Assembly (NCBI GenBank): GCA_000004985.1
Contig: GG738912.1
Strand: one strand, 5' to 3'
Source of the DNA: Naegleria gruberi
Lineage: Eukaryota
Length of the DNA stretch: 64,000 nucleotides
Shown piece by piece: positions 153 through 62,307 of the stretch. The position numbers and the translations under genes are program-made. How positions within the stretch are numbered: the first letter of the stretch is position 1; the number at the start of each line of letters is the position of its first letter. The notes under the pieces are model-generated. The model was given only the letters and a program-made list of their open reading frames with translations. It was not told the DNA's origin and did not search any database.

Positions 153-1820
153 TTAATACAAGAATTCTGCAAACAATGGCAAGTGATCAGAGCCATGATC
201 TTCATCAGGAATACTTGATTTTGGAACGAATTCCAAACAAGGTCCACTATCTTTCACTTGCAAACTTGGAGAATGCCATATGTAATCAACTATTGAATTT
301 CTACCAGTCGTTCCACAACAAGTCCAAAACTCCTGAACTGTATCATGACTCTTTTGCAGTGGAATACTTTCACAAGCTTCAATTAATTGTATTGGTTTCT
401 CGTGTGGACTTGTATTGAAATCTCCAAACCAAATAATACTTGTCTTTTGAGGATCAGCAATTTTTCCAATTTGATTCAAAATTTCATTCACTTGTTTTTC
501 TCTTGGGCCAGTATCACGAGGTTGGAATGTCAAATGACAATTTATAATACAGAAGAATCGACCTTTCACTCTATCCCTTGCAATAACGTATTGAAATACT
601 TCAGGATACTCCTTCACTAAGGTCTTTTCTCCCTTATTGAATATTTCAAATTTGGTATTTCTAATAGCAAGTATCAAGCCGTCCTTCTTTGGATAATTCT
701 TATACGAATGGTAAACTGAAAATCCTTCTTGTTCCAGAAAGAATTGAATTTGAGAAGCATGTTGATTATCAATTTCTTGTAGACCAATTATATCAAATCT
801 TCTCTCCTTCAAGACGGAAAATATTTTATACTTTCGTATTTCCCAATCCAGATATTTCTGATTGGTAATATTCGAATATCTACTCAAAGAAATGTAACAT
901 TGTGCCAAAATATTATAGGAACAGACCAGAATAGTTGGTGGAGGAAAGGACAGATTAGTTTGTGGTAGATTTTCTGATCTTGATCCAATGATGACCTGAT
1001 TATTCTGGACTGGAGAAACATGAAAATGTTGAAATTGCTTTCCAGAATTTTGAGGATTGTAAAAATTTTGAGGAGGATAATTTTGAATTGCTTGATTTGG
1101 ATAATTTGCAATTGGTTGTAAAATTTTGGGATTTGCATATTGAATTGGAGGAGGTTGATTTTGTTGGTGGTGTTGTTGATGACTATTAGAAACTGAACTA
1201 GTTCCTTTCTGATTATTACCATAATGAGCTTGATAGGTAGTTTGATTTTTGGCAGGTTTTTGACTACTTGACTGATTAGTAGAATCAATCTGCTTCTTCT
1301 TCTTCTCATTCACCCCATGACATTCCTTCCACACAGGTTCATCACTTCCATGTATAAAACAATATCTATGCCATCTTTCCTTATTATAGCATTTTTCACC
1401 ATATTTGCACGGATGATGAAACTTGAATTTGTGTGAAAATTCCTTATTTTCATCCAGTAATGATTTACAATTTAGTCCATACTTGCACGGATGATAAAAT
1501 TGAAAATTATGATTGGAATCATTGGTGAGTTTACAATTTTCCCAATTTGGACATCTCAAAGAAACTAATTGTTCATCATCAATCCCTTGAATTACATTCG
1601 AAACATCTGAAAAAAAGTGTTTGGCCTTTCGAATAATTTCTTTCGAAAAATTAGTTTCATGTTTAAAAGTTAAATTGTGTTTCTTATTGGTGAGGAGAGA
1701 ACAATCCTTCCCGAATGGACAGGTATGGATGAAATAATGTGTATGATTGGAGTCAAATAGATTATAACAATTTTCATCGTATTGACAAACTGTAAGTTTT
1801 GATGACATTTTTTTTGACAA
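153..1820 (-). CDS. Protein with N-terminal repeated PBZ-type (C-x5-C-x7-11-H-x5-H) zinc fingers and a C-terminal endonuclease/exonuclease/phosphatase (EEP; CCR4/nocturnin/Angel-like) nuclease domain
   Basis: The 555-aa ORF has about five repeats of C[KP][YF]GxxC...H...H (CPFGKDC..H..H; CKYGLNC; CKYGEKC). The C-terminal half carries the EEP motif series: LVCSYNIL, DIIGLQEID, INCHL, WFGDFN, VDYIW, GSDHLPL. No internal stop, so no intron is needed. Confidence 0.6.
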   Translation of the reverse strand: MSKKMSSKLTVCQYDENCYNLFDSNHTHYFIHTCPFGKDCSLLTNKKHNLTFKHETNFSKEIIRKAKHFFSDVSNVIQGIDDEQLVSLRCPNWENCKLTNDSNHNFQFYHPCKYGLNCKSLLDENKEFSHKFKFHHPCKYGEKCYNKERWHRYCFIHGSDEPVWKECHGVNEKKKKQIDSTNQSSSQKPAKNQTTYQAHYGNNQKGTSSVSNSHQQHHQQNQPPPIQYANPKILQPIANYPNQAIQNYPPQNFYNPQNSGKQFQHFHVSPVQNNQVIIGSRSENLPQTNLSFPPPTILVCSYNILAQCYISLSRYSNITNQKYLDWEIRKYKIFSVLKERRFDIIGLQEIDNQHASQIQFFLEQEGFSVYHSYKNYPKKDGLILAIRNTKFEIFNKGEKTLVKEYPEVFQYVIARDRVKGRFFCIINCHLTFQPRDTGPREKQVNEILNQIGKIADPQKTSIIWFGDFNTSPHEKPIQLIEACESIPLQKSHDTVQEFWTCCGTTGRNSIVDYIWHSPSLQVKDSGPCLEFVPKSSIPDEDHGSDHLPLFAEFLY

Positions 1821-1841
1821 GTGAATTCTGACAGATAAAAA

Positions 1842-2729
1842 ATGGTAGCATCAAGCGAAGAAGAACACGATCAGGAAACATCAACAACAGCTGCATCACT
1901 TTCGATATCAAGTGTTGTTGGTGGAATTAAAAATTTACTTGGTGAATTATTTGACAAGGCATCAACTGAAGAAATTGATCATGTAATTGCATTGACAGGA
2001 TTTAATGCATTGAAAGCTTATACATGTTTATTGGAAAAGTATCCTCCACCTACTGTTCCGGTGTCAAATGTTGTGGAACAGCAGCCATCTGTCAGTAGTC
2101 AAAATATTCCCCTGACACAACAATATTTTCAACCATCACAATTACCAATTCAACATGTTCATCAAAATATTGATCCGATGATGATGAGCCAATTTATGAT
2201 GCAAAATCAATTTATGCCTGTCGGATGTCAACAATTCAATCAAATTCCTCAATTTCAACAACAGCAACCTATGAATCAATCTACATGTATTTTGATGAAT
2301 GATGGAATGGGAAGACAATATTATATGATTTCTGATCCAAGTCAAATGTCAAGTAATAATTCAATGATGGTCAGCAGTGGAATTACAACTTCCAACCCAA
2401 CTCCTCAACCATCTTCTACATCAATTACAGCATCTACTTCAATTGCAACTCAAACATCTACTTCTAATACACCTGCCACATCAACGCAACCTGCCACCAC
2501 TCATGTCACCATTGACAAGAAGAAGAAATGTAAAGATTGGGACAAATGTACTCAAACTGGCGACCAAACACACGTTGAGAAATTCTTCCATCCATGCAGA
2601 AATGGATCTCATTGCAAGAATATTGAAAATGTCATTCATCAAAATAGATTTGTTCATCCTTGTAAAGATGGAAAGCAATGTAAGAAGAAGGATGATAATT
2701 TACACAATATTATGTTTACTCATAAATAA
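1842..2729 (+). CDS. UBA-like, Q/S/T-rich protein with two C-terminal PBZ-type zinc fingers
   Basis: 295-aa ORF with an A-rich start context. N-terminal EEIDHVIALTGFNALKAYTCLLEKY is UBA-like. It is followed by Q/M/S/T-rich low complexity. The C-terminus has CKDWDKC..H, PCRNGSHCKNIENVIHQNRFVH and PCKDGKQCKKKDDNLHNIMFTH. Confidence 0.5.
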   Translation: MVASSEEEHDQETSTTAASLSISSVVGGIKNLLGELFDKASTEEIDHVIALTGFNALKAYTCLLEKYPPPTVPVSNVVEQQPSVSSQNIPLTQQYFQPSQLPIQHVHQNIDPMMMSQFMMQNQFMPVGCQQFNQIPQFQQQQPMNQSTCILMNDGMGRQYYMISDPSQMSSNNSMMVSSGITTSNPTPQPSSTSITASTSIATQTSTSNTPATSTQPATTHVTIDKKKKCKDWDKCTQTGDQTHVEKFFHPCRNGSHCKNIENVIHQNRFVHPCKDGKQCKKKDDNLHNIMFTHK

Positions 2730-2796
2730 AATCAATGCTTTTGCTTGTCAAATTGTGAATTCACTTGTCAAATCATCGTTTTACCTGTCAAAAAAA

Positions 2797-4527
2797 ATGT
2801 TACCTTATCGTCCGCCTATTGTTCAGCCAATTCAACAGTTAATTCCGGTGTATTCCTACATGCCATCAACTTCATCATCGCCTGCCACTCCAACCAATGA
2901 TCAATCACATCAATCAACTGCCACAAATCAAAATAATCAGCAAAGTATTTGCAAATTTGGTCCAAATTGTCCCAACTATGACCAATGTACCTCTCTTCAT
3001 CCATGCCGTTACGGAGAAGATTGCAGAAGAATTTCAAGAGTTGTTAACAAGACTCAGAAATTACAAGACATTGTTCACTGTTCCAAATGTTTCCATATTT
3101 GTAAATGGGGTGAGAAGTGCAAATATTTGAATGATGAAGAACATGTAAATATGTTTCTTCACACGTGTACTAAATCAAATTGTAAAGATGAAGTTCACAA
3201 AGAGAGATTTAGACATAAATGCAAATATGGAAAAAATTGTCGTTCCTTAGATGGAAAATATGAAAATTGGGAACATTATGTCAAGTTTATTCATCCTAGG
3301 ACTAATGGAGTTATGAGACATGTAGAAAAACAAATGTATTATCTATTTTCTGAAATATCTAATGATGAAAGCAATTCAAAAACTGCTCAATCTGACATTC
3401 CTGGTTTGACACTTGTAAAGAAGAGTACACTCAAACCACAAGTGAAAGATAGAAAACGATCTGCCAAATGTGAAATTTCCACAATCGATGGTAAATCCAC
3501 AGAGTATTATTTCATTGGGTATGAGAAGGGTGCTGGAAATTCGTCAACTTCAAAAGTCGTTTGTTTTAAAGAGACTGGAAAGGGAGTTTTTGAAGGTCAT
3601 ATTAAGGTAGTTGCAGAATCTAGTTGTGTATTTGATGGAAATGCAAAGATTGAACAACCTTGGTATCATTCAAAAGTTAATGTTTATAGAAATACTGTCA
3701 TTAGTCAAGTATTTGATGAAATTTTGAAACAAGGTTTGAATGGAGTGAGCCCAAATGCTACCTATATCGATGTTATGAAATACATGATAGAACAGCATGA
3801 TATTCCAATATTTATTGTTGGAGGAGCTGTCAGAGATGTCATTCGAGAAGTGATTGTTGAAAAAAAGACCAATGCCTTACAAATTATGAATAATATTAAG
3901 GATATTGATATTGGATTTGGTTGTGATCCACAGACATTTCATGGACGCCTCACTCGAAAATATAAATCAGGTGTTCCAATTCCTGGACCTCGTGGACTAG
4001 TTCAAGTAGGAAGCTCCAATGGTTCTGATCTATTCCTGGAAGGTAAAGCCATTAATGGTTTAAATAATGATAATAAGAGTGTGAAAGCACAAATTGCTCA
4101 ATGTTATGGAACTAATCTGAGAGGAGAAAACATTTGTAGAGATTTCACATGTAATTCTCTTTGGTATGATCCAATCAATAAGTGCATTATTGATACTATT
4201 GGAAATGGGCAAGGAATTAAGGACGTAATTTCAAAAAATTTACGAATTCCTGTAAAACCAAGAGATTGGGAATTTTGGGTTTCTGGCAATCCAACAAAGT
4301 TGATGAGATTTTACAAATTCCTTTTGAAGGGATATTCTGCAGATGCCAAAACTAAATCATTCATAATTGAACAAGTTAAAAGTGGTAAATTTATTAGTGA
4401 TATGGAAATTAGAACTCAATACACAAAAGGAATTGGAAAAGCCAACAAAGCAAGGTTGGAGAATTTGTTGAGAAGTGATTTTGGTGATCAGTTTTACAAT
4501 AATTATTTCGCTAATCATATTAAATAA
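2797..4527 (+). CDS. PBZ-type zinc fingers fused to a class II (CCA-adding enzyme / poly(A) polymerase family) nucleotidyltransferase domain
   Basis: Start is ATG at 2797 (aaaaaaaATG), in frame with track ORF 2377..4527. The track's upstream extension overlaps gene 2 in another frame and I judge it spurious. Four PBZ-like fingers: CKFGPNC, CRYGEDC, CKWGEKC..H..H, CKYGKNC..H..H. The head domain shows IFIVGGAVRDV...KDIDIGF (GGxVRD + DxD) and ENICRDFTCNSLWYD (compare RRDFTINAL). The tail is RIPVKPRDWEFWVSGNPTKLMRFYKFL. Confidence 0.55.
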   Translation: MLPYRPPIVQPIQQLIPVYSYMPSTSSSPATPTNDQSHQSTATNQNNQQSICKFGPNCPNYDQCTSLHPCRYGEDCRRISRVVNKTQKLQDIVHCSKCFHICKWGEKCKYLNDEEHVNMFLHTCTKSNCKDEVHKERFRHKCKYGKNCRSLDGKYENWEHYVKFIHPRTNGVMRHVEKQMYYLFSEISNDESNSKTAQSDIPGLTLVKKSTLKPQVKDRKRSAKCEISTIDGKSTEYYFIGYEKGAGNSSTSKVVCFKETGKGVFEGHIKVVAESSCVFDGNAKIEQPWYHSKVNVYRNTVISQVFDEILKQGLNGVSPNATYIDVMKYMIEQHDIPIFIVGGAVRDVIREVIVEKKTNALQIMNNIKDIDIGFGCDPQTFHGRLTRKYKSGVPIPGPRGLVQVGSSNGSDLFLEGKAINGLNNDNKSVKAQIAQCYGTNLRGENICRDFTCNSLWYDPINKCIIDTIGNGQGIKDVISKNLRIPVKPRDWEFWVSGNPTKLMRFYKFLLKGYSADAKTKSFIIEQVKSGKFISDMEIRTQYTKGIGKANKARLENLLRSDFGDQFYNNYFANHIK

Positions 4528-4569: not shown

Positions 4570-7500
4570 TTAATTTTTTCTATTCCTTTTTGGTTTAGAA
4601 ACAAATGTTGGGACTCTTGTGAGTGATTGTTTTTCATATTCAAACTCTATCGCGGAAAAATGGTTATATTGTTCACCAAAGTATCCTCTAGCTTCTTGGT
4701 TTCCATTTTTAGCAGCTTTCAACAACCAGAGTGTTCCTTGTGTTACATCTGTTTCACATAATAACTTTCCCAACGCCAACTCTGCATCTGAATTTTGTTG
4801 TTGAGCAGCTTTGAGCAACCATGAATGTGCAAGCTTAATGTTTTTCGGGACAACCTTATCAAGTCCATACATATAAATCATTCCAAGAGAATATTGTGCA
4901 TTTGAATTTCCTTGATTAGCAGATTTGCAATACCACTCAAAAGCAAGTGAATAATTGGGTGTTTGGATGATATTAAGTGTATGATGATAAATGCAAGCTA
5001 CTTCATATTGGGCTTCATTATTTCCAAGTTCAGCAGCTTTTTGATAGTAATCCCATGCTTTTTGATTATCCTTTAATTCTTTATAGAGATATCCTAAACG
5101 AAAGAGTGCTTCTGAATTCTTCACATCAGATTCTACTGCTTTTAGATACCATATAATGGCCTCATGTTTATCCAATAAAACACCATCACCCAGCTCATAC
5201 ATTTCTCCAATATCATATTGTGAATCAGAATCATTGAATTTTGTAGATGCTTCCAAATACAATTCGTGTGCTTCTTGATAATTACCCTTATTAAAAAACA
5301 TTCTAGCCACATTTCTAAGAGCTTCAATATGCGTACTTATTATTTCAGCTTCTCTAAAAATAAGTTTTCTATATTCTTCATCAATTTCCATTCTTTTTAA
5401 ATTCATATTATTACCTAATATAATGTGTTCGCCAGAAACTAAGATATCTGTAGTAATAGTAGAAAGCTTTTGCTTGGATAAATCGAGTGCTTTTTGGTAA
5501 AGTTTAAATGCCAACAATTCATTACTTGATATTCCATTATCACCATCTTCAAGCATTGATGCAACATAATTAATGGCAGGAATATAGTTACTATCATATA
5601 CTTTCTTAAATAGCTCAAAAGTTTCGGTATTGTTTGTTTTGGAATAATGAATAGCTTGTTGGAATAATTTCTCCCCTTTATCATTACTAACTTCCAAAAT
5701 CATATCCAATTGACTTGCAGAATATAAAACTCCATATTCCACGCCTTCCATTTCTAAAGTATTAACGTTCATCTCATATTGGTTTCTTCTTTGAGCATCT
5801 TCTATAAAATAAGAAATCAATTTTCTTTTTTGAGAATCATTATTTAACACTAAAGAGTAGAGAGTGTAATTATTTTGCTCTGATTTCTCCATTTCTAAAA
5901 TGTGAGAGGAGAAGTTTGGGATTAGAATAAATCTGCTTTTGTCTTTGATTAAATGGCCCATTTTTAAACCAAATTGTGTGACAGATTTTAGAGAGGAATT
6001 TAGAGAAATAATATGCACCTCCTTGTCCTTAAGAAATAATACAAAAAATCTCCAAAAAAGGTCCATCATTTCCGAGACCATTTGAACTCGCTGTTTCTTT
6101 TTGTTAATCTGTTTGAAAATAGTTTGAAATAATTCCTTATAAATATCTTCCATCCTTTTTTGATAATCATTTGGTTTCGTGTTGTTTTTGAAAATATTTG
6201 CTATCTTGTACTTGATAAATGTGATTAAATGTTGTCTGTCATCTACACGTGCTATTTGAGAATTTGGGTCTTTAAACTCTAATTTTTGAGAAACTAACAA
6301 TTGCATACTATCATATAATTTACCAACTAGAGAAACACTGCGCCTCAATGGACCATGTTTGTTCTTGTGGTAGTGTGGAAAGCCAGGGAATTTTTCAAGT
6401 AGTTCTAAATCTTGTGCATTTACAGCAACACTGTAGTTGCCTTTTTTGGGAGCGTCGATAGCCCTGTTGATGAGAGTACATAATCTTTCCATGTTATTCC
6501 AGTATTTTCGTGACCATTGATTTCCATAAAAATCAGCAAACAAATGACGAATTCCAATCAAGTCTTTGAATATATCAGGATCGAATGATCGTGTCTCATT
6601 GTAGTCGTCATCAAAAGATCCTGGATCGAACTCTACTAATGATTCTACTAGTTCGTTATCCCAACATGCAAAATATTGATCTCCATCTAGATCAGATCCT
6701 GCAATCATATTTGTTATTGGTCTACTTCCTTTTGTAGGAAAAACAATAACATCGTAAAGAAAATTCAATTCAGGAATGTTGACTGCCTCTAATTTTCTCA
6801 GGTCACCACGATGTAAGCATGGCTCTTTAGTGACAATCACAGTATTCTCAATTACATTCTTCTTCTTTGGATCATTTAGAGAGGAAACTTGAATAAATAT
6901 TTGACCTTCTTTGAGTACTCCGAAAGGATCTGCTATTCCGTACAACCTTCTAGAACTGTAACAAGGAATTCTCAAGGAGAGTATTTGGTTTCTGTAGGGG
7001 CCTGTCAGGAAAGCAAGCTTTTTGCTTTTTAGAATGGAAAGAACGTTAAGAGAGGCATAGTCTCCTTGTTTTACGTACTGATCAAAAACCTTGTCAATGT
7101 CCGATTCTGAAATATAGTTTTTCATCAAATTTTCAATATGTTTACAGGCCTTTTGGTTTAGTATTTCGAATATCTTTCCTTGTTTTGTTTCATCTTCACA
7201 CCCTTCTAAAATGTGCATAATTGTCGAATTGATTCTAGCAAAATCACAGGGGCTTGAATAACCTACGATGCATAAATTATTAATTATATCATCATCAGTG
7301 TTTGGGTGTTCAATTTTCATCATTGATTTCCTTAGCACTAAATGGTGACCATACACCTTTTCCGCATTTGGATGGATGTAAACCATGCCTTTGGCTCCTC
7401 TAAATCTTATTTGGTATGCACAGGGAAGATATTCATTGACTAGAAACTCTACTCCATCATTTTCTTCGTAGATACCATCTTCATCCATCGATTGTTTGCT

Positions 7501-8724
7501 CTGGTATTTCAATAAATTTTTAGATTTACGAACAATTTCATAAACTTTCATAGCCAATTCAAGAGAAATAAATCCACATCCATCGGTGAAAAGTCCCTCA
7601 TCATTAATAACAGTGTATTCTGAAACTCCAATAGTAGGAATAACAGGAGTATTAAATAAAGCCAGTCTTAAACTTTGCTTTAATTTGTTATTCTCAAAAT
7701 AAAGATCCCTGTTCAATGTATCTGGAATGGCCCATGTTTTTACATCATGTATTGATAGGGAAGAATTGTTTGGAAGTTTGGAAAGATCAGGACACATGTA
7801 AATAAATCGATAAGAATGCATTCCACTCGTATTTTGACACAGTTTCTGGAATGTAAATCCAGCAATATGTAAAGGCTCTTCTCTTTCTATATATGGCTCT
7901 ATTAGCCTGAATGATTGGTTATCCATTAACACTCTGCTAATGTGCTTTTGGTCTTTCATTAATTTCAATGTTTCCTCATCGAATTTTCCTTCCTTGAATT
8001 GATTTAAATATTGTCTCAATAATACTATATCTCCATGATCCTCTGATTTTGATTCCATAGCCACTTGATCCTTCAATTCAATATTATTTAAAATTTCAGG
8101 GTGCTCTCCAGTAGATTCAAGAATCATTTGAGATTTGAAACCCATTCTCAAAAAGCTAAATCCAACATTCAACACTGTATTCACACCAAATTTTTGTCTA
8201 AACCTACTCTGTAGCCATCTATCTTGTTGTGAGCTGTTGAATCGAATGGCAAGAATGGGTGATATCTTTGGTTTGTAAAAACAATATAAGGTTGCTGTTC
8301 TAGTCCTAAACATTGTCTCTGATTCGTCCAATTCTTCTGTTGTTTGCTTACTTGGAGATGAAAGGTTTAAATTCTGATGATCCTCTTCCTTCTCTGTTAT
8401 TGTTGCTAACAACCACCGATGAAGAGCCTCTAATCCTATCGGATAGGCAATCACTGCCATCCTAGAAACTCTCTTTAATATTTCATAGCGATCGACGAAG
8501 GACATTCCACAATACTTTTCCCCTCTCACATTTTTGAAATTAAATTCCAAATATTTGGTACAATCATCAAAATTTCTAATGATCGGAATGGATTCAATCA
8601 TGTAATAAGTTGCCAATAAATCCTTTACGTAATTTTCATCTTGTCTATTCATAAACTTTAACTCTTCAAGTTGTTGAATCTTTTCAAGCTTTGAGAACCC
8701 AGAAACAAAAGACAATACGGACAT
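4570..8724 (-). CDS. Eukaryotic cellular RNA-dependent RNA polymerase (RDR family) with C-terminal Sel1-like (SLR/TPR-like) repeats
   Basis: 1384-aa uninterrupted ORF starting aaaaaaaATG. It carries the RDR catalytic signature: VIVTKEPCLHRGDLRKLEAVNIPELNFLYDVIVFPTKGSRPITNMIAGSDLDGDQYFACWD. Other RDR blocks are present: DGCGFISLELA, RFRGAKGMVY, LRKSMMKIEHP, YRNQILSLRIPCYSSRRLYGIADPFGVL. The C-terminal ~300 aa are tandem Sel1-like units (AxxWYxKAAxxGNxxAQYxLGxxY...). Confidence 0.75.
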   Translation of the reverse strand: MSVLSFVSGFSKLEKIQQLEELKFMNRQDENYVKDLLATYYMIESIPIIRNFDDCTKYLEFNFKNVRGEKYCGMSFVDRYEILKRVSRMAVIAYPIGLEALHRWLLATITEKEEDHQNLNLSSPSKQTTEELDESETMFRTRTATLYCFYKPKISPILAIRFNSSQQDRWLQSRFRQKFGVNTVLNVGFSFLRMGFKSQMILESTGEHPEILNNIELKDQVAMESKSEDHGDIVLLRQYLNQFKEGKFDEETLKLMKDQKHISRVLMDNQSFRLIEPYIEREEPLHIAGFTFQKLCQNTSGMHSYRFIYMCPDLSKLPNNSSLSIHDVKTWAIPDTLNRDLYFENNKLKQSLRLALFNTPVIPTIGVSEYTVINDEGLFTDGCGFISLELAMKVYEIVRKSKNLLKYQSKQSMDEDGIYEENDGVEFLVNEYLPCAYQIRFRGAKGMVYIHPNAEKVYGHHLVLRKSMMKIEHPNTDDDIINNLCIVGYSSPCDFARINSTIMHILEGCEDETKQGKIFEILNQKACKHIENLMKNYISESDIDKVFDQYVKQGDYASLNVLSILKSKKLAFLTGPYRNQILSLRIPCYSSRRLYGIADPFGVLKEGQIFIQVSSLNDPKKKNVIENTVIVTKEPCLHRGDLRKLEAVNIPELNFLYDVIVFPTKGSRPITNMIAGSDLDGDQYFACWDNELVESLVEFDPGSFDDDYNETRSFDPDIFKDLIGIRHLFADFYGNQWSRKYWNNMERLCTLINRAIDAPKKGNYSVAVNAQDLELLEKFPGFPHYHKNKHGPLRRSVSLVGKLYDSMQLLVSQKLEFKDPNSQIARVDDRQHLITFIKYKIANIFKNNTKPNDYQKRMEDIYKELFQTIFKQINKKKQRVQMVSEMMDLFWRFFVLFLKDKEVHIISLNSSLKSVTQFGLKMGHLIKDKSRFILIPNFSSHILEMEKSEQNNYTLYSLVLNNDSQKRKLISYFIEDAQRRNQYEMNVNTLEMEGVEYGVLYSASQLDMILEVSNDKGEKLFQQAIHYSKTNNTETFELFKKVYDSNYIPAINYVASMLEDGDNGISSNELLAFKLYQKALDLSKQKLSTITTDILVSGEHIILGNNMNLKRMEIDEEYRKLIFREAEIISTHIEALRNVARMFFNKGNYQEAHELYLEASTKFNDSDSQYDIGEMYELGDGVLLDKHEAIIWYLKAVESDVKNSEALFRLGYLYKELKDNQKAWDYYQKAAELGNNEAQYEVACIYHHTLNIIQTPNYSLAFEWYCKSANQGNSNAQYSLGMIYMYGLDKVVPKNIKLAHSWLLKAAQQQNSDAELALGKLLCETDVTQGTLWLLKAAKNGNQEARGYFGEQYNHFSAIEFEYEKQSLTRVPTFVSKPKRNRKN

Positions 8725-8906: not shown

Positions 8907-10094
8907 TTACCACCAAAATACTATGTCAGTATTAGTCTGTTTGGAAAATTCATCACTAATTTTGTTTCCACTCACGTCTAATAATTGTAAATTCTTCATT
9001 TGTGTGATTGCCTTAAGTCCTTCATCCGTTATTTCATTGTTATTTACATATAAAATAGATAATTTCTCTAATTCACTAATGTAGTGTGCTCCTTCGTCTT
9101 GAATATCATTGAGTGAAATATCTAGTTCAGTTACGCGTTGCATTTTGCTGATAAATTTTGCTCCAGTTGGGCCAATTTCGCAATTATTGATCAAAAGTGT
9201 TGTCAATTGTTCAAGTTCACCGATTGATTCTGCTCCTTGTTGTCCAATTAAATTGAAACCAACATTGATAAATGTCAAGCCTTTCAGTTGGCTAATTGAA
9301 TTGGCTCCTTCCTCTCCAATTCCATTACTACTAACATCTAGTTTGGTTAAATTCTTCATATGGCTTATTGAATACATTCCTTCATCACCAATGTTATTGC
9401 TGCCAATGAAAAGCTCTCTTAATTGATCTAATTGTGCAATGAGTTCTGCTCCTTGTATTCCAAGATCATTATCATTAATTCTGAGAGAGGTTAAATTTCT
9501 CATCCCACTAACTACCTCCACATCCAAACATTTGAGCTTAGTGTATGACATGTCCAGAATAGTCAATTGCTTCATATCTTTAATTTTACAAACTGATTCA
9601 AAACTAAATCTATTTCCAGAAACATTAAGTTCTTTCAATTGCTTCATTTGTGAAATTACACTGATTTCTCTATCAGAAATTTTACAAAACACAACATGAA
9701 GCCTCCTTAAATGCTCGCATCGTGCAATGCTCTCTATTGCATCAATAGTTATTTCATTCTTGTTATTAATAACAAGAGAATTCAGCCTTTGTGCCATTTC
9801 AATTCCATTCCAAAATCTTTCATTCTGAATTCTTGCTCTGACTTCAATATTCGTAAAATATGATAACCATTCAAAATGTTCAATATTAGAATGTCTATTA
9901 ATTATTACTATTGAAAGAATCGATCGTTCCCTAATTACATTCATCCATTGTTTAGAAATTAATAAACAATTCTTCAATAGGAATTTGTGATCCGCGTCTA
10001 CAAAGGAGAGAATTTCAAAAATTACATCATCAGAAAATAATTCTTGATGTTGTGATTTGATGCGGGTGGAATCTTCTACGTGATTGTTGAGCAT
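8907..10094 (-). CDS. F-box-like / RI-type leucine-rich-repeat protein
   Basis: N-terminus DDVIFEILSFVDADHKFLLKNCLLISKQWMNVI is F-box-like. It is followed by about 10 RI-type 24-28 aa LRRs (LxxLxxLxISxNxIGxEGAxxISxLxx). Start is A-rich (aaaaaaaaATG at 10094). Confidence 0.6.
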   Translation of the reverse strand: MLNNHVEDSTRIKSQHQELFSDDVIFEILSFVDADHKFLLKNCLLISKQWMNVIRERSILSIVIINRHSNIEHFEWLSYFTNIEVRARIQNERFWNGIEMAQRLNSLVINNKNEITIDAIESIARCEHLRRLHVVFCKISDREISVISQMKQLKELNVSGNRFSFESVCKIKDMKQLTILDMSYTKLKCLDVEVVSGMRNLTSLRINDNDLGIQGAELIAQLDQLRELFIGSNNIGDEGMYSISHMKNLTKLDVSSNGIGEEGANSISQLKGLTFINVGFNLIGQQGAESIGELEQLTTLLINNCEIGPTGAKFISKMQRVTELDISLNDIQDEGAHYISELEKLSILYVNNNEITDEGLKAITQMKNLQLLDVSGNKISDEFSKQTNTDIVFWW

Positions 10095-11432
10095 TTTTTT
10101 TTAATTTTTTTAAAAAAACATTAATGGAAATTTCAGAGACCAAATAACTTGAACGATCAAAGGCAGAATCTACAACTGAGAATGACTTGGTTTGAGAATC
10201 GTATCCAGTGGCCAAAACGAAATGTTCAGTCTTCTTTCCAGGTGGTTTGATTAGTTTCAAGATGACCATTCTTCCTTCACACAAGTTTCGAATAGTTACA
10301 GACATGTCAGTGGTTATCCCTGAGAATTTCACACCAAATTGTTTGTTAATGGATGCCCAGATAAATAAGTTTCCATCCTTGAAACCACGATTTTTCTTCA
10401 ACCATTCGTTCATTTCTTTTGGTGTCCATTCGGTTCTTCCCAAACCTTTCAATCCAGAAGTAATGGCCGAAAGAAGACAACCAGCTTTACAAATTGTTGA
10501 ACTTCCACTTCCTAATTTGAGAGATCCCCATCTTGTATCACATTGCTTAAAGACTGTGAATTGAGTATGAACATATCCTGGATAACATTCCTTTTTTGGA
10601 GGATTAGGTTTTATGGATATTTCTGGTTTTGGAGGAATTGGAATAGGTCTTGGAGATTCTTGTGGAATTGGAACAGGATTAGGTCTAGGAGAAGGTCTAG
10701 GATCTGGATGTGGTTTAGGAGAAGGAACTGGTGGCACAGGTTTTGGTGATTCATGTGGCACTGGTGGAACAGGTTTTGGTGAAGGGATTGGATTTGGAGG
10801 AATTGGCTTTGGTGAAGGAATTGGAATTGGTGGAGTTGGAGGATTCGGTTGGGGTGGATTTGGAATTGGTGGGACTGGATTTGGACTGGAGGAATTGGAA
10901 TAGGTCTTGGTCCTCTACAACATGGTCTGGCACAGTTGTTTCCTTGTTGTGGAATTTTCAAATCCAAATTGACATTGACGTTTTGTCTACTTCCTCCATT
11001 GGAAGATGCTGAGCTGGAGGAAGAAGCAGAGGCAGATGCAGGTTGTTGGATAATGATTGTTTGAGGAGGTGGTATAATTGGTTTAATCATTGGAACATTG
11101 AGAATGATATTTTGAGGAGGGAAGAAACACTTAGGTTTCTTGCAAGGTTTAGTTGGTTTTCTAATTGGTTTCTTACATGGTTTCTTTGGTTTCTTTCCAA
11201 TCACATGGACAATAAATCCAGGACTCTTGTTATTTCTACACTTGAGTCTTCTAATATTGGATCTAATCTTTCGAGATTTGGACGAAATTCTTTCAGTGTC
11301 CAAAGTAATCACTTGGACACTTCTTCTTTCATGATTTGCTGAGTCGCTTGCCAACACAGCAGCACTAAAGAAACAAATTAACAATAGTGTGGCCAACAAG
11401 AAAGCTGTTTTCACAATCAAATTGCTGAACAT
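10030..11432 (-). CDS. Secreted Lys/Pro-rich protein with a C-terminal papain-fold C39-like (BtrH/YvpB-type, Cys-His-Asp) peptidase domain; reading frame interrupted near 10885
   Basis: Start ATG 11432 (tcaaaaaaATG) gives a signal peptide MFSNLIVKTAFLLATLLLICFFSAAVLAS. Then come basic KKPxKP repeats and Pro-rich sequence (PRPIPIPP), which continues in a second frame from about 10905 (SPNPVPPIPNPPQPNPP...PKPHPDPRPSP). The C39-like domain follows: QCDTRWGS..TICKAGCLLSAITSGL...HFVLATGYD...VVDSAFD. The two frames meet at ccaGTcca (about 10885), consistent with a 1-nt indel. The C-terminal end overlaps the 5' end of the next gene and may be a read-through. Confidence 0.4.
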
Positions 11433-11650: not shown

Positions 11651-12788
11651 TTATTGGTTGGAAATATTAGAGCATGTGGACAAACAGCGATTATCATCCC
11701 CATCTTCGTTGATAGTTGTCATTGGTGTGGAAGTTTGAATCTGTAGTTGACCTTCCTCAACATTAACTGAACTTGAAATATTACTATTTGCATTATCATG
11801 ATCAATTAAATGTTTCAATACCACCTTTCTGATTTGGAAGAGCACAAACCATGATAATCTTATCATGACCAATACCAAGGAAATCTTGATAGTTTCTCCT
11901 GGTAAGAATGGAACTAAACCCTTCTCAATTCCCTTAGAGAGTCCAAGATTTGGCACTCCGAATGCCAACCATCCACATCCAAATACAAATGTAACAGCAT
12001 TCGATAGACACAACATGAGGAGATTCATCATGATGGTACGATCTGAAGCCATTTTGGAGCAAAACCAACCACAAATCAGTGCACTAAAGACAAAACCAAT
12101 GAGGAAACCACTACTACTCGACTGGAACAAGACCAGATTTCCATGTGTTTGATTGGAAAACCAAGGAATATCAAGAACAGAACCACAGAATAAATAGAGG
12201 AGAATACTGAGTGGAGCAATGACAAAACCAGTTAAGGAGCCAAGCCACAAGACACCAAAAGTTTGTCCAGTGATTGGAACGGCACTAATGGAGGAAGGGA
12301 GTGAAATGGAAATTTGAGCACAAACTCCCATCAAGCATGCTCCAAAGATAACCAACAACATGTTGGAAATGAAGGGAACGACAGCATTGGAAACGATTGT
12401 TTTCAAAAGTGGATGGCATGTGCCAAGTTTCAAATGCCACTTTTTTACAAGATCAAATCTTCTCTCACTCTTGATAAGAATGAGATCAAAAACTGAACGC
12501 ATGAGTGCCATGTATGCATCCAAGAATGAAGGATACCAACTTGGGTTGACCAAGATTTTCACAGGAGGTTCCTCTTCAACCATTGGTGTAGAAGTGCTGC
12601 CAATTCTACCAATTGAGTGGTCTTGTCCTCTTCTTCTTCTAATCTGTGATATATTTTCAGATTCAATGGTGAGATGTTGCTGAGAAACTTTATATCCAAG
12701 CTTTCTTTCAATTTCCTTGCCCAAATCATCAATTCTGCTTGACGATTCAAATGACTCACCAAGTGGGGACACTACAAGATATTGCATG
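11651..12788 (-). CDS. BioY-family (biotin ECF-transporter S-component-like) membrane protein with a eukaryote-style N-terminal extension
   Basis: Strong BioY blocks: CAQISISLPSSISAVPITGQTFGVLWLGSLTG, ILLYLFCGSVLDIPWFSN..GNLVLFQSSSSGFLIGFVFSALICGWF, FGCGWLAFGVPNLGLSKGIEKGLVPFLPGETIKISLVLVM. Likely ATG at 12788 (aaaaaaacaccATG), with about 130 aa N-terminal to the BioY core. Confidence 0.6.
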
Positions 12789-13160
12789 GTGTTTTTTTTG
12801 TATTGTTTTTCTCTCAAGATCTTGTGAGGAGAGAACTCGAAGCTCAATAGAATTTGATTCTTCTAAGTGTTTGGGGAGACCGAAATATTCGGAAGTTTTG
12901 AAAAGATCCGTTTAATGTGTAAGCAATTCTGAACCTTCTTTAAGGATTTTTAATAATCACGAACGACTCCCCGAATACAATATGGTTTCACACATTGTAA
13001 ATTTAACAGAGTTACGAATATTAAATTATAATTAATCTAATTAATAATAAAGCATCAATATATTGCTAACTAGATTGCTAATCAATCATGCATGGATTTG
13101 AAACTAGATCCAATATCTATCACGTAAATATTCAAAACTCATTAATAAAACATGAATTGT

Positions 13161-44718: not shown

Positions 44719-44791
44719 GGGGTCTTGGCGCAGTCGGTAGCGCGTAGGTCTCATAATCCTAAGGTCGTGAGTTCGATCCTCACAGACCCCA
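44719..44791 (+). tRNA. tRNA-Met (CAU), elongator type
   Basis: GGGGTCTTGGCGCAGTCGGTAGCGCGTAGGTCTCATAATCCTAAGGTCGTGAGTTCGATCCTCACAGACCCCA. The 7-bp acceptor stem pairs, A box TGGCGCAGTCGG and B box GGTTCGATCC are present, and the anticodon CAT is at 44752..44754. It resembles eukaryotic elongator Met. Confidence 0.85.
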
Positions 44792-54445: not shown

Positions 54446-54518
54446 GCCCGTCTAGCTCAGTCGGTAGAGCGCAAGGCTCTTAACCTTGTGGTCGTGGGTT
54501 CGACCCCCACGGTGGGCG
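54446..54518 (+). tRNA. tRNA-Lys (CUU)
   Basis: GCCCGTCTAGCTCAGTCGGTAGAGCGCAAGGCTCTTAACCTTGTGGTCGTGGGTTCGACCCCCACGGTGGGCG. Anticodon CTT is at 54479..54481, with A/B boxes. It is followed by ttttatttttg T-runs. Confidence 0.85.
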
Positions 54519-60700: not shown

Positions 60701-62307
60701 NNNNNNNNNNNNNNNNNNNNNNNNNNNNNNNNNNNNNNNNNNNNNNNNNNNNNNNNNNNNNNNNNNNNNNNNNNNNNNNNNNNNNNNNNNNNNNNNNNNN
60801 NNNNNNNNNNNNNNNNNNNNNNNNNNNNNNNNNNNNNNNNNNNNNNNNNNNNNNNNNNNNNNNNNNNNNNNNNNNNNNNNNNNNNNNNNNNNNNNNNNNN
60901 NNNNNNNNNNNNNNNNNNNNNNNNNNNNNNNNNNNNNNNNNNNNNNNNNNNNNNNNNNNNNNNNNNNNNNNNNNNNNNNNNNNNNNNNNNNNNNNNNNNN
61001 NNNNNNNNNNNNNNNNNNNNNNNNNNNNNNNNNNNNNNNNNNNNNNNNNNNNNNNNNNNNNNNNNNNNNNNNNNNNNNNNNNNNNNNNNNNNNNNNNNNN
61101 NNNNNNNNNNNNNNNNNNNNNNNNNNNNNNNNNNNNNNNNNNNNNNNNNNNNNNNNNNNNNNNNNNNNNNNNNNNNNNNNNNNNNNNNNNNNNNNNNNNN
61201 NNNNNNNNNNNNNNNNNNNNNNNNNNNNNNNNNNNNNNNNNNNNNNNNNNNNNNNNNNNNNNNNNNNNNNNNNNNNNNNNNNNNNNNNNNNNNNNNNNNN
61301 NNNNNNNNNNNNNNNNNNNNNNNNNNNNNNNNNNNNNNNNNNNNNNNNNNNNNNNNNNNNNNNNNNNNNNNNNNNNNNNNNNNNNNNNNNNNNNNNNNNN
61401 NNNNNNNNNNNNNNNNNNNNNNNNNNNNNNNNNNNNNNNNNNNNNNNNNNNNNNNNNNNNNNNNNNNNNNNNNNNNNNNNNNNNNNNNNNNNNNNNNNNN
61501 NNNNNNNNNNNNNNNNNNNNNNNNNNNNNNNNNNNNNNNNNNNNNNNNNNNNNNNNNNNNNNNNNNNNNNNNNNNNNNNNNNNNNNNNNNNNNNNNNNNN
61601 NNNNNNNNNNNNNNNNNNNNNNNNNNNNNNNNNNNNNNNNNNNNNNNNNNNNNNNNNNNNNNNNNNNNNNNNNNNNNNNNNNNNNNNNNNNNNNNNNNNN
61701 NNNNNNNNNNNNNNNNNNNNNNNNNNNNNNNNNNNNNNNNNNNNNNNNNNNNNNNNNNNNNNNNNNNNNNNNNNNNNNNNNNNNNNNNNNNNNNNNNNNN
61801 NNNNNNNNNNNNNNNNNNNNNNNNNNNNNNNNNNNNNNNNNNNNNNNNNNNNNNNNNNNNNNNNNNNNNNNNNNNNNNNNNNNNNNNNNNNNNNNNNNNN
61901 NNNNNNNNNNNNNNNNNNNNNNNNNNNNNNNNNNNNNNNNNNNNNNNNNNNNNNNNNNNNNNNNNNNNNNNNNNNNNNNNNNNNNNNNNNNNNNNNNNNN
62001 NNNNNNNNNNNNNNNNNNNNNNNNNNNNNNNNNNNNNNNNNNNNNNNNNNNNNNNNNNNNNNNNNNNNNNNNNNNNNNNNNNNNNNNNNNNNNNNNNNNN
62101 NNNNNNNNNNNNNNNNNNNNNNNNNNNNNNNNNNNNNNNNNNNNNNNNNNNNNNNNNNNNNNNNNNNNNNNNNNNNNNNNNNNNNNNNNNNNNNNNNNNN
62201 NNNNNNNNNNNNNNNNNNNNNNNNNNNNNNNNNNNNNNNNNNNNNNNNNNNNNNNNNNNNNNNNNNNNNNNNNNNNNNNNNNNNNNNNNNNNNNNNNNNN
62301 NNNNNNN
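57779..62307. other. Assembly gap (4,529 N)
   Basis: Continuous n run. Track ORFs containing X strings are artefacts of it. Confidence 0.95.

What the first reader, a model, noticed from the sequence alone, without database searches (positions are those of the whole stretch)
2797..4527. Class II (CCA-adding/PAP-type) nucleotidyltransferase fused to four PBZ-like zinc fingers
GGAVRDV...KDIDIGF and ENICRDFTCNSLWYD place the C-terminal half in the CCA-adding/bacterial poly(A) polymerase head-domain family. There is an approximately 13-aa insertion between the GG and DxD motifs. In eukaryotes this family is usually a single housekeeping tRNA enzyme. A finger-tagged paralogue suggests a retargeted template-independent 3'-tailing enzyme.
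Basis: partly seen in the sequence, partly recalled or inferred. Interest (0 to 1): 0.6.

Follow-up and report, generated by a model that had tools for sequence, protein, structure and literature searches.

The report
PARP-linked zinc-finger nucleotidyltransferase gene
A Naegleria gruberi gene with no counterpart in the protein collection searched encodes a divergent relative of the tRNA CCA-adding enzyme that lacks the CCA-specifying residues and tRNA-binding domains, carries zinc fingers resembling poly(ADP-ribose) readers, and lies in a conserved cluster with PARP and nuclease genes, which suggests an undescribed link between ADP-ribosylation and untemplated nucleotide addition.

Summary

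It is not a CCA-adding enzyme. The templating motif EDxxR is replaced by an invariant GNPxK, and the body and tail domains are missing. A family-specific SH3-like barrel precedes the head.

It is also not a recent copy of the housekeeping enzyme. It belongs to a large uncharacterised clade (1999 cluster representatives) that includes a phage contig, a Sorangium protein, a malawimonad and bdelloid rotifers.

The link to ADP-ribosylation is recurrent. In Naegleria and Willaertia the gene clusters with finger-bearing PARP genes and Angel/Nocturnin-type nuclease genes. Other members are fused to a WWE domain or to U-box plus a PARP catalytic domain.

Best reading (about 0.5): an ADP-ribose-recruited, non-CCA 3'-end nucleotide-adding enzyme that works with the nuclease. 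Substrate and base specificity are untested. It is a new variant of a known kind, of moderate to high interest.

The parts
2797..4527 (+). Complete gene (576 aa plus stop) for the zinc-finger / SH3-like / class II NTase protein
   Evidence: Orthologues at 45-46% identity overall and 52-55% in the C-terminal 372 aa. The protein collection holds no identical or near-identical protein.
2730..2796 (+). 67-bp intergenic promoter region with three YTGTCAAAW boxes and the 16-mer GAATTCACTTGTCAAA (2757-2772)
   Evidence: The only other copy of the 16-mer in the window is at 1813-1828(-), just upstream of the EEP gene.
2797..2949 (+). Low-complexity P/S/T/Q-rich N-terminus (aa 1-51)
2950..3000 (+). Finger 0, CX5CX5CX3H (CCCH type, Nab2-like spacing), aa 52-68
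   Evidence: The Willaertia orthologue has CX5CX4CX3H at the same place.
3004..3294 (+). Four tandem CCHH, PBZ-like fingers (aa 70-100, 102-122, 124-140, 142-166) joined head to tail by H-x-C
   Evidence: PBZ Pfam hits for fingers of this type.
3409..3693 (+). Family-specific N-terminal SH3-like beta-barrel (aa 205-299) ending in the conserved QPW motif
3802..4194 (+). Class II NTase head domain (aa about 336-466): motif A GGAVRD (342-347), 21-residue spacer, DxD (K368-D369-I370-D371), conserved loop LEGKAINGLNNDN (414-426), motif B ENICRDFTCN (444-453)
4195..4524 (+). Motif C (aa 464-486), neck with motif D GNPTKLMRFYKF (aa 497-508, in place of EDxxRxxRxxRF) and a short helical C-terminus; no body or tail domains
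153..1808 (-). Cluster partner: EEP-fold phosphoesterase of the Angel2/Nocturnin (CCR4-like) clade with five N-terminal fingers of the same type
   Evidence: Pfam Exo_endo_phos E 1.2e-16. PDB Angel2 2.9e-9, Nocturnin 5.6e-9. Fingers. EEP genes lie next to or near the NTase gene in N. lovaniensis, N. fowleri and Willaertia.
1842..2729 (+). Cluster partner: 295-aa Q/S/T-rich protein ending in three CX5CX7HX5H fingers
   Evidence: Proteins with near-identical finger triplets lie next to the NTase gene in Willaertia (L002:12447-13928) and near it in N. lovaniensis (L001:4726-6246).

Best explanation
The gene encodes a catalytically intact but non-CCA class II nucleotidyltransferase that is part of a PARP-centred module.

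Shown:
- The head and neck fold and the catalytic motifs A, B and C are intact.
- The two base-templating residues of motif D are replaced (Asp to Asn, Arg to Lys, Glu to Gly).
- The tRNA-binding body and tail are absent.
- A conserved SH3-like barrel and an array of PBZ-like/CCCH fingers are added at the N-terminus.
- In Naegleria and Willaertia the gene is clustered with genes for PARPs and for Angel/Nocturnin-type EEP phosphoesterases that carry the same fingers.
- Relatives in other organisms are fused to a WWE domain or to U-box plus a PARP catalytic domain.

Inferred:
- A cluster PARP deposits ADP-ribose or poly(ADP-ribose) at a site of nucleic-acid damage or infection.
- The fingers bring the EEP enzyme and the NTase to that mark.
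- The EEP enzyme trims or heals the 3' end, for example by removing a 2',3'-cyclic or 3' phosphate as ANGEL2 does.
- The NTase then adds untemplated ribonucleotides to the freed 3'-OH. RNA is the most likely substrate.
- The SH3-like barrel takes over primer binding from the missing body and tail.

Which nucleotide is added, and whether the tail repairs the end or marks it for decay, cannot be told from sequence.
For: NTase identity and intact core:
- Pfam PF01743, E 1.8e-8.
- Invariant G-G..D, K-D-I-D, C-R-D-F..N and D..G..D across orthologues.

Not a CCA enzyme:
- The profile alignment places G-N-P-x-K opposite E-D-P-x-R of E. coli PAP.
- GNPxK is conserved in about 30 of the closest family representatives. 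None of the 84 members aligned has EDxxR; one has ADPTR, which keeps the Asp and Arg.
- In an in vivo selection on a human CCA enzyme library whose codons allowed N and K, the D and R of EDxxR were never replaced (PMC11784652).
- The protein ends about 70 aa after motif D.

Link to PARP:
- N. lovaniensis gene order: PARP / EEP / NTase / EEP / PARP / SIR2.
- N. fowleri: EEP / NTase / EEP / PARP / SIR2.
- Willaertia L004: EEP ... PARP / NTase.
- In each of these loci the PARP genes, at least one EEP gene and the NTase gene carry the CX5CX6-8HX5H fingers.
- In the 64-kb window the strict finger pattern occurs only in the three adjacent genes.
- Fusions: WWE+NTase (P0027) and U-box+PARP+NTase (P0060, P0077, P0093). 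Close relatives of P0093 are named bdelloid rotifer proteins.
- A malawimonad member has 16 fingers.
- 9 of 20 fingers hit Pfam PBZ.

Co-regulation:
- The exact 16-mer GAATTCACTTGTCAAA occurs only upstream of the EEP and NTase start codons.

EEP type: Angel2/Nocturnin clade.

Analogy, from my own knowledge:
- The HD domain of the E. coli CCA enzyme has 2',3'-cyclic phosphodiesterase and phosphatase activity that prepares 3' ends for nucleotide addition (Yakunin et al. 2004).
- ANGEL2 is a 2',3'-cyclic phosphatase (Pinto et al. 2020).
Against: - No experiment or expression data exist for any family member. No paper describing the family was found.
- The PBZ assignment is weak. The one finger whose bit score was reported scored 16.5 against a cut-off of 22.7. 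The spacing is one residue longer than canonical PBZ, and some fingers also hit CCCH RNA-binding families. The fingers could bind RNA rather than PAR.
- Gene clustering in a eukaryote could come from local duplication and shuffling of the finger cassette rather than from shared function.
- Two of the three Willaertia paralogue loci examined (L002, L005) have no PARP gene nearby.
- The rotifer-type PARP fusions have degenerate motifs A and B (GGAVRH or GGAVVH; the motif B Arg is replaced) and may be inactive.
- Motif D varies widely across the wider family, so base selection may be loose or the substrate may not be a standard NTP.
Confidence: 0.5

Rival explanations
1. DNA-end processing. The NTase acts like a terminal transferase at PAR-marked DNA breaks, together with the EEP nuclease acting as a 3'-end cleaner, in a PBZ-organised repair pathway comparable to APLF/PNKP/Pol mu in end joining.
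For: - PBZ fingers are mainly known from DNA-damage proteins (PMC4245714).
- The EEP fold also includes APE1 and TDP2 (my knowledge).
- The U-box+PARP+NTase fusions occur in bdelloid rotifers, which are known for tolerating extreme DNA breakage (my knowledge).
- The first Arg of motif B (RRD) is Cys here.
Against: - All characterised class II NTases use RNA primers and rNTPs.
- The second Arg of RRD is retained. From my recollection of the Bacillus structure, this is the residue that reads the ribose 2'-OH.
- The EEP partner is closest to the RNA/NADP-directed Angel2/Nocturnin clade, not to APE1 or TDP2.
Confidence: 0.15
2. The fingers are RNA-binding, CCCH-like modules, and the PARP association is incidental or runs through RNA, as in ZAP, PARP12 and TIPARP. 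The protein would be an RNA-guided tailing enzyme acting on particular transcripts or viral RNAs without reading ADP-ribose.
For: - Several fingers hit CCCH families (zf-CCCH, zf_CCCH_4, DUS3L, Nab2-type) as well as PBZ.
- The first finger is a true CX5CX5CX3H finger.
- The cluster PARP is closest to the PARP15/12/14 group, and ZAP is also among the hits.
- Willaertia loci are flanked by GBP immunity-type GTPase genes.
Against: - PBZ is the Pfam family hit by the most fingers (9 of 20).
- The only full-length PDB alignment is to APLF PBZ.
- An independent fusion to WWE, an established PAR reader, occurs in the same family.
Confidence: 0.17
3. The enzyme does not extend nucleic acids. It nucleotidylates ADP-ribose or PAR termini, or makes a small nucleotide signal.
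For: - The templating residues are altered and variable.
- All tRNA-binding parts are lost.
- There are direct fusions to PARP catalytic domains.
- Relatives are fused to an inorganic pyrophosphatase domain. That domain family is described mainly from phage polyvalent proteins (PMC5512222).
- Precedent for modifying ADP-ribose hydroxyls: Deltex E3 ligases ubiquitinate the terminal ADP-ribose of PAR (PMC11219154, listed).
Against: No class II NTase is known to do this. Nothing in the sequence points to it specifically.
Confidence: 0.1
4. It is the organism's housekeeping CCA-adding enzyme, or a recent functional copy of it, that merely carries extra fingers.
For: It passes the Pfam PolyA_pol head threshold, and its best structural matches are CCA-adding enzymes.
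Against: - Motif D is GNPTK, not EDxxR.
- D and R of that motif were irreplaceable in selection experiments (PMC11784652).
- There are no body or tail domains.
- No PDB protein is detectable by single-sequence search.
- The family is shared with a phage contig and a bacterium and has a distinct N-terminal domain.
Confidence: 0.03
5. It is a non-functional relic or pseudo-enzyme.
For: The gene is absent from the N. gruberi proteins in the collection searched. Some distant fusion relatives have degenerate catalytic motifs.
Against: - The 576-codon ORF is intact.
- All catalytic carboxylates and motifs A-C are invariant across Naegleria, Willaertia and environmental orthologues.
- A conserved promoter element is shared with the neighbouring EEP gene.
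Confidence: 0.05

Closest known systems
Class II tRNA CCA-adding enzymes (Bacillus stearothermophilus 1miv, Thermotoga maritima 3h37, human TRNT1 1ou5, Arabidopsis 9kma)
   Different: Motif D EDxxR is GNPxK. There are no body or tail domains. A 13-aa helix is inserted in motif A. The first Arg of RRD is Cys. A conserved LEGKxxNGxNxD loop lies where the variable flexible loop sits. An SH3-like barrel and zinc fingers are added at the N-terminus.
Bacterial poly(A) polymerase I (PcnB; 3aql)
   Different: PAP keeps EDPxR (visible in the alignment). From my knowledge it also has C-terminal RNA-binding regions. Neither feature is present here (one search shows no such Pfam hits).
Stand-alone CCA-head-domain protein NP_344798.1 (2la3) and phage or giant-virus 'tRNA nucleotidyltransferase' homologues
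   Different: None of these matches shows the SH3-like domain or the fingers. Whether they keep EDxxR was not checked.
PBZ-containing PAR readers (APLF, CHFR, SNM1A; the many Dictyostelium repair proteins)
   Same: CCHH fingers with a C-x-[FYW]-G-x-x-C start and H-x5-H end. They co-occur with PARP genes, including PBZ+PARP proteins (PMC4245714).
   Different: The central spacing is one residue longer (x7 against x6). The fingers are concatenated directly (H-P-C) in arrays of up to 16. The one bit score reported is below Pfam's cut-off. PAR binding is untested.
CCCH/WWE antiviral PARPs (ZAP/PARP13, PARP12, TIPARP) and TENT-type terminal transferases (TENT5/FAM46, TUT4/7)
   Different: In those systems the NTase belongs to other Pol-beta families and is not itself fused to PAR readers or PARP domains.
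E. coli CCA enzyme HD domain, and ANGEL2, as 3'-end healing activities
   Same: An NTase is paired with a phosphoesterase that can clear 2',3'-cyclic or 3' phosphates before extension (my knowledge). The EEP partner here is in the Angel2/Nocturnin clade.
   Different: Here the two activities are encoded by separate neighbouring genes that share a finger array and a promoter element.

Membership tests
Class II nucleotidyltransferase superfamily (Pfam PF01743 PolyA_pol head) | Score above Pfam's gathering threshold | tested here: met
   35.2 bits against a cut-off of 23, E 1.8e-8, aa 338-483. 80 of 84 family members also pass.
Class II nucleotidyltransferase superfamily (Pfam PF01743 PolyA_pol head) | Motif A GGxVRD followed by the catalytic DxD | tested here: met
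   GGAVRD (aa 342-347) and D369-x-D371, invariant in orthologues. The spacer is 21 residues instead of 8.
Class II nucleotidyltransferase superfamily (Pfam PF01743 PolyA_pol head) | Motif B RRDxxxN and motif C D..G..D | tested here: met
   C-R-D-F-T-C-N and I-D-x4-G-x-G-x-x-D are conserved. The first Arg is replaced by Cys.
Class II nucleotidyltransferase superfamily (Pfam PF01743 PolyA_pol head) | Head and neck three-dimensional fold | tested here: met
CCA-adding enzyme (tRNA nucleotidyltransferase) | Motif D EDxxR amino-acid template for CTP and ATP | tested here: not met
   GNPTK is aligned to EDPVR of PAP. GNPxK is invariant in the clade. D and R were irreplaceable in selection (PMC11784652).
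CCA-adding enzyme (tRNA nucleotidyltransferase) | Body and tail domains that hold the tRNA | tested here: not met
CCA-adding enzyme (tRNA nucleotidyltransferase) | Flexible loop between motifs A and B that switches C to A specificity | tested here: inconclusive
   A low-confidence loop lies at the equivalent place (model residues 217-235). It directly follows a strongly conserved LEGKxxNGxNxD segment, unlike the variable CCA loop.
CCA-adding enzyme (tRNA nucleotidyltransferase) | CCA addition to tRNA; a separate canonical enzyme in the genome | not testable with these tools
   No eukaryotic genome search is available. tRNA-Met and tRNA-Lys in the window lack encoded CCA, so a true CCA enzyme must exist somewhere in the genome.
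Bacterial poly(A) polymerase I | EDPxR motif plus C-terminal RNA-binding regions | tested here: not met
   Motif D differs. There are no Pfam hits to PAP C-terminal domains.
PBZ (PAR-binding zinc finger, Pfam PF10283) | CX5CX6HX5H spacing and a profile match above the threshold | tested here: inconclusive
   Spacing is x5/x7/x5 in most fingers. 9 of 20 fingers hit PF10283, best E 3.3e-4. The one finger with a reported bit score got 16.5 against a cut-off of 22.7. The APLF match has E about 1.6.
PBZ (PAR-binding zinc finger, Pfam PF10283) | Co-occurrence with PARP genes or domains | tested here: met
   Finger+PARP proteins lie next to or near the NTase gene in three loci. The family is also fused to WWE and PARP domains.
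PBZ (PAR-binding zinc finger, Pfam PF10283) | Binding of poly(ADP-ribose) | not testable with these tools
   This needs a biochemical assay.

The most novel reading that the evidence does not exclude
The family is a previously unrecognised enzymatic arm of ADP-ribosylation signalling. The NTase would use the free ribose hydroxyl of a protein- or nucleic-acid-linked ADP-ribose or PAR chain, rather than an RNA 3' end, as its primer. It would build a hybrid ADP-ribose-nucleotide mark that the Angel/Nocturnin-type EEP enzyme reverses. Viruses and bdelloid rotifers would have exchanged this system with protists.
Probability: 0.1. Interest if true: 0.9.

Novelty: new variant of a known kind. Interest (0 to 1): 0.6.

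Why it matters
Class II nucleotidyltransferases are regarded as tRNA CCA-adding enzymes and bacterial poly(A) polymerases. This gene exposes a large uncharacterised branch of the superfamily. The branch has lost the CCA template and the tRNA-binding domains and has gained its own SH3-like domain.

In protists and bdelloid rotifers the branch is repeatedly joined to poly(ADP-ribose) writers and readers, both by gene clustering and by direct fusion. If the inferred coupling is real, PARP signalling in these organisms directs untemplated nucleotide addition, probably with a partner 3'-end phosphoesterase. That would be a new output of ADP-ribosylation.

The coupling is directly testable with recombinant proteins. 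It is relevant to RNA or DNA end repair and to antiviral defence. It is also an example of a functionally coherent gene cluster, with a shared promoter element, in a eukaryote.

Tried and rejected
- Link to the adjacent RdRP gene (4570-8724(-), convergent, 42 bp between the ORF ends), by analogy with RNAi RdRP-NTase complexes. Rejected because the RdRP is not near the NTase gene in N. lovaniensis, N. fowleri or Willaertia.
- Single-sequence search of PDB: no relevant hit. A family profile was needed.
- GenBank phages by tblastn, with the window protein and with phage-type member P0053: no match. IMG/VR pattern scan: no confirmed relative. The phage members are therefore known only from metagenome contigs.
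- Look-up of the N. gruberi contig through the RdRP protein failed. The genes to the left of the window, where a PARP might lie, could not be seen.
- Literature searches returned nothing describing this family. Terms covered Naegleria+PBZ, Naegleria+CCA-adding, PARP+nucleotidyltransferase+PBZ+WWE, ADPr+CCA-adding+polyvalent proteins, bdelloid+PARP+nucleotidyltransferase, and PF01743/PolyA_pol. Text searches within two comparative-genomics papers found no mention of it either.
- Cho et al. 2007 (re-engineering of EDxxR) and Aravind et al. 2015 were not held in the library.
- I considered predicting base specificity from the N/K pair and dropped it. Asn can donate or accept hydrogen bonds, and motif D varies across the family.
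- A canonical Naegleria CCA enzyme could not be searched for with the available tools.
Full report
**Organism and gene.** The neighbouring ORF 4570-8724(-) is identical to Naegleria gruberi XP_002670772.1/EFC38028.1, an RNA-dependent RNA polymerase. The window is therefore N. gruberi nuclear DNA (about 33% GC). Window 2797-4527(+) is an intact 576-codon ORF. The list of ORFs also shows a GTG-started extension back to 2377. That stretch overlaps the clearly coding, finger-encoding frame of the upstream gene 1842-2729. The N. lovaniensis and N. fowleri orthologues begin 'MLPSTS', like 'MLPYRP' at 2797. No identical or near-identical protein exists in the 5.8-billion-sequence collection. The gene therefore seems to be missing from the N. 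gruberi protein set held there. The best hits are hypothetical proteins of Willaertia magna (46%), N. lovaniensis (45%) and N. fowleri (44%).

**Check of the observation.**
- The quoted motifs are present at aa 342-374 and 444-458.
- Pfam's PolyA_pol head domain passes its threshold: 35.2 bits against 23, E 1.8e-8.
- A single-sequence PDB search finds nothing relevant. A profile of eight orthologues finds S. pombe cca1 (E 1.9e-5) and E. coli poly(A) polymerase (E 4e-3).
- The spacer between GGxVRD and DxD is 21 residues. Many family members have 8, as canonical enzymes do.
- The N-terminal half holds five fingers: one CX5CX5CX3H finger and four CCHH fingers with spacings 5/17, 5/7, 4/4 and 5/11.
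- I tested twenty fingers of the locus-typical CX5CX7HX5H type from this and the orthologous loci. Nine hit Pfam PBZ (PF10283, best E 3.3e-4), more than hit any other family. Some hit CCCH families instead.
- The only full-length PDB alignment is to the APLF PBZ fingers, at a non-significant E-value.
- 'PBZ-like' is therefore a reasonable but unproven label.

**Why it is not a CCA-adding enzyme.** The profile alignment to E. coli PAP puts G-N-P-x-K opposite E-D-P-x-R. In class II enzymes the Asp and Arg of EDxxR form the protein template that reads CTP and ATP (PMC11784652).

In that study a library of the human enzyme had the three positions randomised with codons that allowed N and K. Selection returned only EDxxR, DDxxR and GDxxR, and never a replacement of D or R. 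GNPxK is invariant in the orthologues and is present in about 30 of the nearest cluster representatives.

The protein ends 68 residues after motif D, so the body and tail domains that hold tRNA are absent. The two tRNA genes in the window (44719-44791 and 54446-54518) are followed by TCT and ATT, not CCA. N. gruberi must therefore have a real CCA enzyme elsewhere. I could not search the rest of the genome.

**What is retained and what is new.**
- Retained: motif A, both catalytic Asp residues, the R-D-F-x-x-N core of motif B and motif C are invariant. The enzyme is probably active.
- New: Cys replaces the first Arg of RRD.
- New: a strongly conserved LEGKxxNGxNxD segment directly precedes a disordered loop (model residues 217-235), where CCA enzymes have their variable flexible loop.
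- New: a conserved domain of about 95 residues precedes the head (aa 205-299, ending in Q-P-W).
- Because it occurs in place of the missing body and tail, I infer that it helps hold the primer substrate.

**The wider family.** An exhaustive profile search of 1.84 billion cluster representatives found 1999 proteins at E<=1e-3, 373 at E<=1e-10 and 60 at E<=1e-30. Many of them cover the SH3-like domain as well as the NTase.
- Of 84 members scanned, 80 pass PF01743. Additional domains are an inorganic pyrophosphatase (InPase PF18823; 5 members), U-box (3), PARP catalytic domain (3) and WWE (1).
- P0060, P0077 and P0093 have the architecture U-box + PARP + SH3-like + NTase. P0027 is WWE + NTase. 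P0019 has a weak IBR hit.
- Close relatives of P0093 (73% identity) are named proteins of the bdelloid rotifers Adineta ricciae and Rotaria socialis.
- P0028, with 16 fingers, comes from the malawimonad Gefionella okellyi. P0049 is a 7704-aa Sorangium protein with repeated NTase modules.
- Nine high-GC members share an N-terminal 'VKIGPHGGKIVGF' domain. One of them, P0053, sits on a contig of tightly packed co-directional genes. That contig also encodes a major head protein (phrog_752, E 1.9e-80), so it is a phage.
- This InPase domain family is described mainly from phage polyvalent proteins that are probably packaged in the virion (PMC5512222).
- No relative was found in GenBank phages or IMG/VR.
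- Motif D varies across the family. None of the 84 has EDxxR, and one has ADPTR.
- The family is therefore an old, mobile, conflict-associated branch of the class II NTases, not a recent copy of the eukaryotic tRNA enzyme.

**Genomic context.**
- In the N. gruberi window the strict finger pattern occurs in only three ORFs, and they are adjacent.
  - EEP phosphoesterase at 153-1808(-), with five fingers. It matches Angel2 (2.9e-9) and Nocturnin (5.6e-9).
  - A 295-aa Q/S/T-rich protein at 1842-2729(+), with three fingers.
  - The NTase gene.
- N. lovaniensis gene order: finger protein (507 aa) / PARP with six fingers / EEP (531 aa) / NTase / EEP with six fingers / PARP with finger-type motifs / SIR2+zf-UBP.
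- N. fowleri has the same arrangement.
- In a second Willaertia locus, an EEP gene with six fingers and a PARP gene with six fingers lie within 9 kb upstream of an NTase paralogue. The ORF of that paralogue extends upstream to include one finger.
- In another Willaertia locus the NTase is followed by a protein with fingers near-identical to those of the 295-aa protein, and GBP genes flank the locus. A third Willaertia paralogue has no such neighbours.
- The cluster PARP is most similar to PARP15/12/14 and to tankyrase. Its C-terminal T-E-F-V-I-F-D resembles the N-E-Y-I-V-Y-D segment of PARP1 that holds the catalytic Glu. This rests on my own knowledge of the motif and is an inference. If correct, PAR synthesis is plausible.

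**A shared cis-element.** The exact 16-mer GAATTCACTTGTCAAA occurs twice in the 64-kb window and nowhere else, even when three mismatches are allowed. One copy is at 2757-2772(+), 25 nt before the NTase ATG. The other is at 1813-1828(-), 4 nt before the EEP ATG, within the 33-bp divergent EEP/295-aa intergenic region. Related 'TGACAAGAATTC[AT]C' and 'GGAACGTGAT' boxes occur in the NTase, PARP and EEP promoters of the other two Naegleria species. The background frequency of GAATTC is 0.5-1 per kb. This points to co-regulation.

**Mechanism.** The shown facts are the intact catalytic core, the loss of the CCA determinants, the new N-terminal domain, and the recurrent physical and genomic coupling to PARP, WWE, PBZ-like and EEP modules.

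From these I infer a module with the following steps.
1. A PARP marks a site with ADP-ribose or PAR.
2. The fingers recruit the EEP enzyme and the NTase to that mark.
3. The EEP enzyme clears or trims a 3' end.
4. The NTase extends the freed 3'-OH with untemplated ribonucleotides.

RNA is favoured as the substrate for three reasons. All characterised class II enzymes act on RNA. The second Arg of RRD is kept. The EEP partner belongs to the RNA/NADP-directed Angel/Nocturnin clade. The pairing resembles the HD phosphoesterase plus NTase combination of the E. coli CCA enzyme, and the 2',3'-cyclic phosphatase activity of ANGEL2 (my knowledge).

I give this composite model about 0.5. The rivals are as follows.
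- DNA-end tailing at PAR-marked breaks (0.15).
- Fingers that bind RNA rather than PAR (0.17).
- Nucleotidylation of ADP-ribose or PAR itself, or synthesis of a signalling nucleotide (0.10).
- A relic or pseudo-enzyme (0.05).
- A housekeeping CCA enzyme (0.03).

**Novelty and score.** None of the seven full-text searches or the text look-ups in individual papers found a description of this clade, its SH3-like domain or its PARP, WWE or PBZ associations. The library is incomplete, so an earlier mention cannot be excluded. The protein is a member of the known class II NTase superfamily, but it fails two defining tests for CCA-adding enzymes and for PAP. It has a new architecture and context, so I rate it a new variant of a known kind. 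Interest is 0.6. The link between ADP-ribosylation and nucleotide addition would surprise specialists and is directly testable, but every functional step is still inferred.

Noticed in passing
window 1813-1828(-) and 2757-2772(+); also 2745, 2765, 2785: The exact 16-mer GAATTCACTTGTCAAA occurs only twice in the window, each time just upstream of a start codon (EEP and NTase). The 67-bp NTase intergenic region also has three YTGTCAAAW boxes. Related GAATTC and AACGTGAT boxes occur in the orthologous cluster promoters of N. lovaniensis and N. fowleri. It is probably a shared regulatory element.
   Followed up: partly
window 153-1808(-): A gene for an Angel2/Nocturnin-clade EEP phosphoesterase with five N-terminal PBZ-like fingers. 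It lies divergent from the 295-aa finger gene with only about 33 bp between their start codons.
   Followed up: partly
window 1842-2729(+): A 295-aa Q/S/T-rich protein with no Pfam domain that ends in three CX5CX7HX5H fingers. Proteins with near-identical finger triplets lie next to or near the NTase gene in Willaertia and N. lovaniensis. Its N-terminal part is uncharacterised.
   Followed up: partly
window 4570-8724(-): An RNA-dependent RNA polymerase (Pfam RdRP, E 1.8e-78) fused to C-terminal Sel1/TPR repeats, identical to N. gruberi XP_002670772.1. It is convergent with the NTase gene, with 42 bp between the ORF ends. The adjacency is not conserved in the other species.
   Followed up: partly
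window 2797-4527: The NTase ORF has no identical or near-identical entry in the protein collection, although the neighbouring RdRP does. The gene appears to be missing from the N. gruberi protein set held there.
   Followed up: partly
L001:15507-17006 (N. lovaniensis) and L003:15464-17115 (N. fowleri): A SIR2 deacetylase fused to a zf-UBP (ubiquitin C-terminus-binding) finger lies directly after the PARP gene of the cluster in both species. An NAD-consuming enzyme thus sits beside the PARP/EEP/NTase genes.
   Followed up: no
L002 and L004 (Willaertia magna): The Willaertia NTase loci are flanked by guanylate-binding-protein (GBP) genes and an RCC1-BTB gene, which suggests an immunity-type genomic neighbourhood.
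   Followed up: no
L006:8878-11109: A metagenomic phage contig (major head protein phrog_752, E 1.9e-80) encodes a 743-aa member of the family with the SH3-like domain. The gene lies directly after a 2390-aa protein with no PHROG match. Nine family members share its N-terminal 'VKIGPHGGKIVGF' domain.
   Followed up: partly
P0093, P0159, P0161 (Adineta ricciae, Rotaria socialis): Bdelloid rotifers encode U-box + PARP + SH3-like + NTase fusion proteins. Motifs A and B of the NTase part are degenerate (GGAVRH; the motif B Arg is replaced).
   Followed up: partly
window 57779-62307: An assembly gap of 4529 N. The long 'ORFs' listed across about 57.4-62.4 kb on both strands are artefacts of this gap.
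   Followed up: yes
window 44719-44791 and 54446-54518: tRNA-Met(CAT) and tRNA-Lys(CTT) genes. Neither encodes the 3' CCA.
   Followed up: yes
window 10033-10761(-) and 11654-12847(-): ORFs with typically bacterial domains: Peptidase_C39_2 (E 3.6e-11) and the BioY biotin transporter (E 5e-26). They may be horizontally acquired genes.
   Followed up: no
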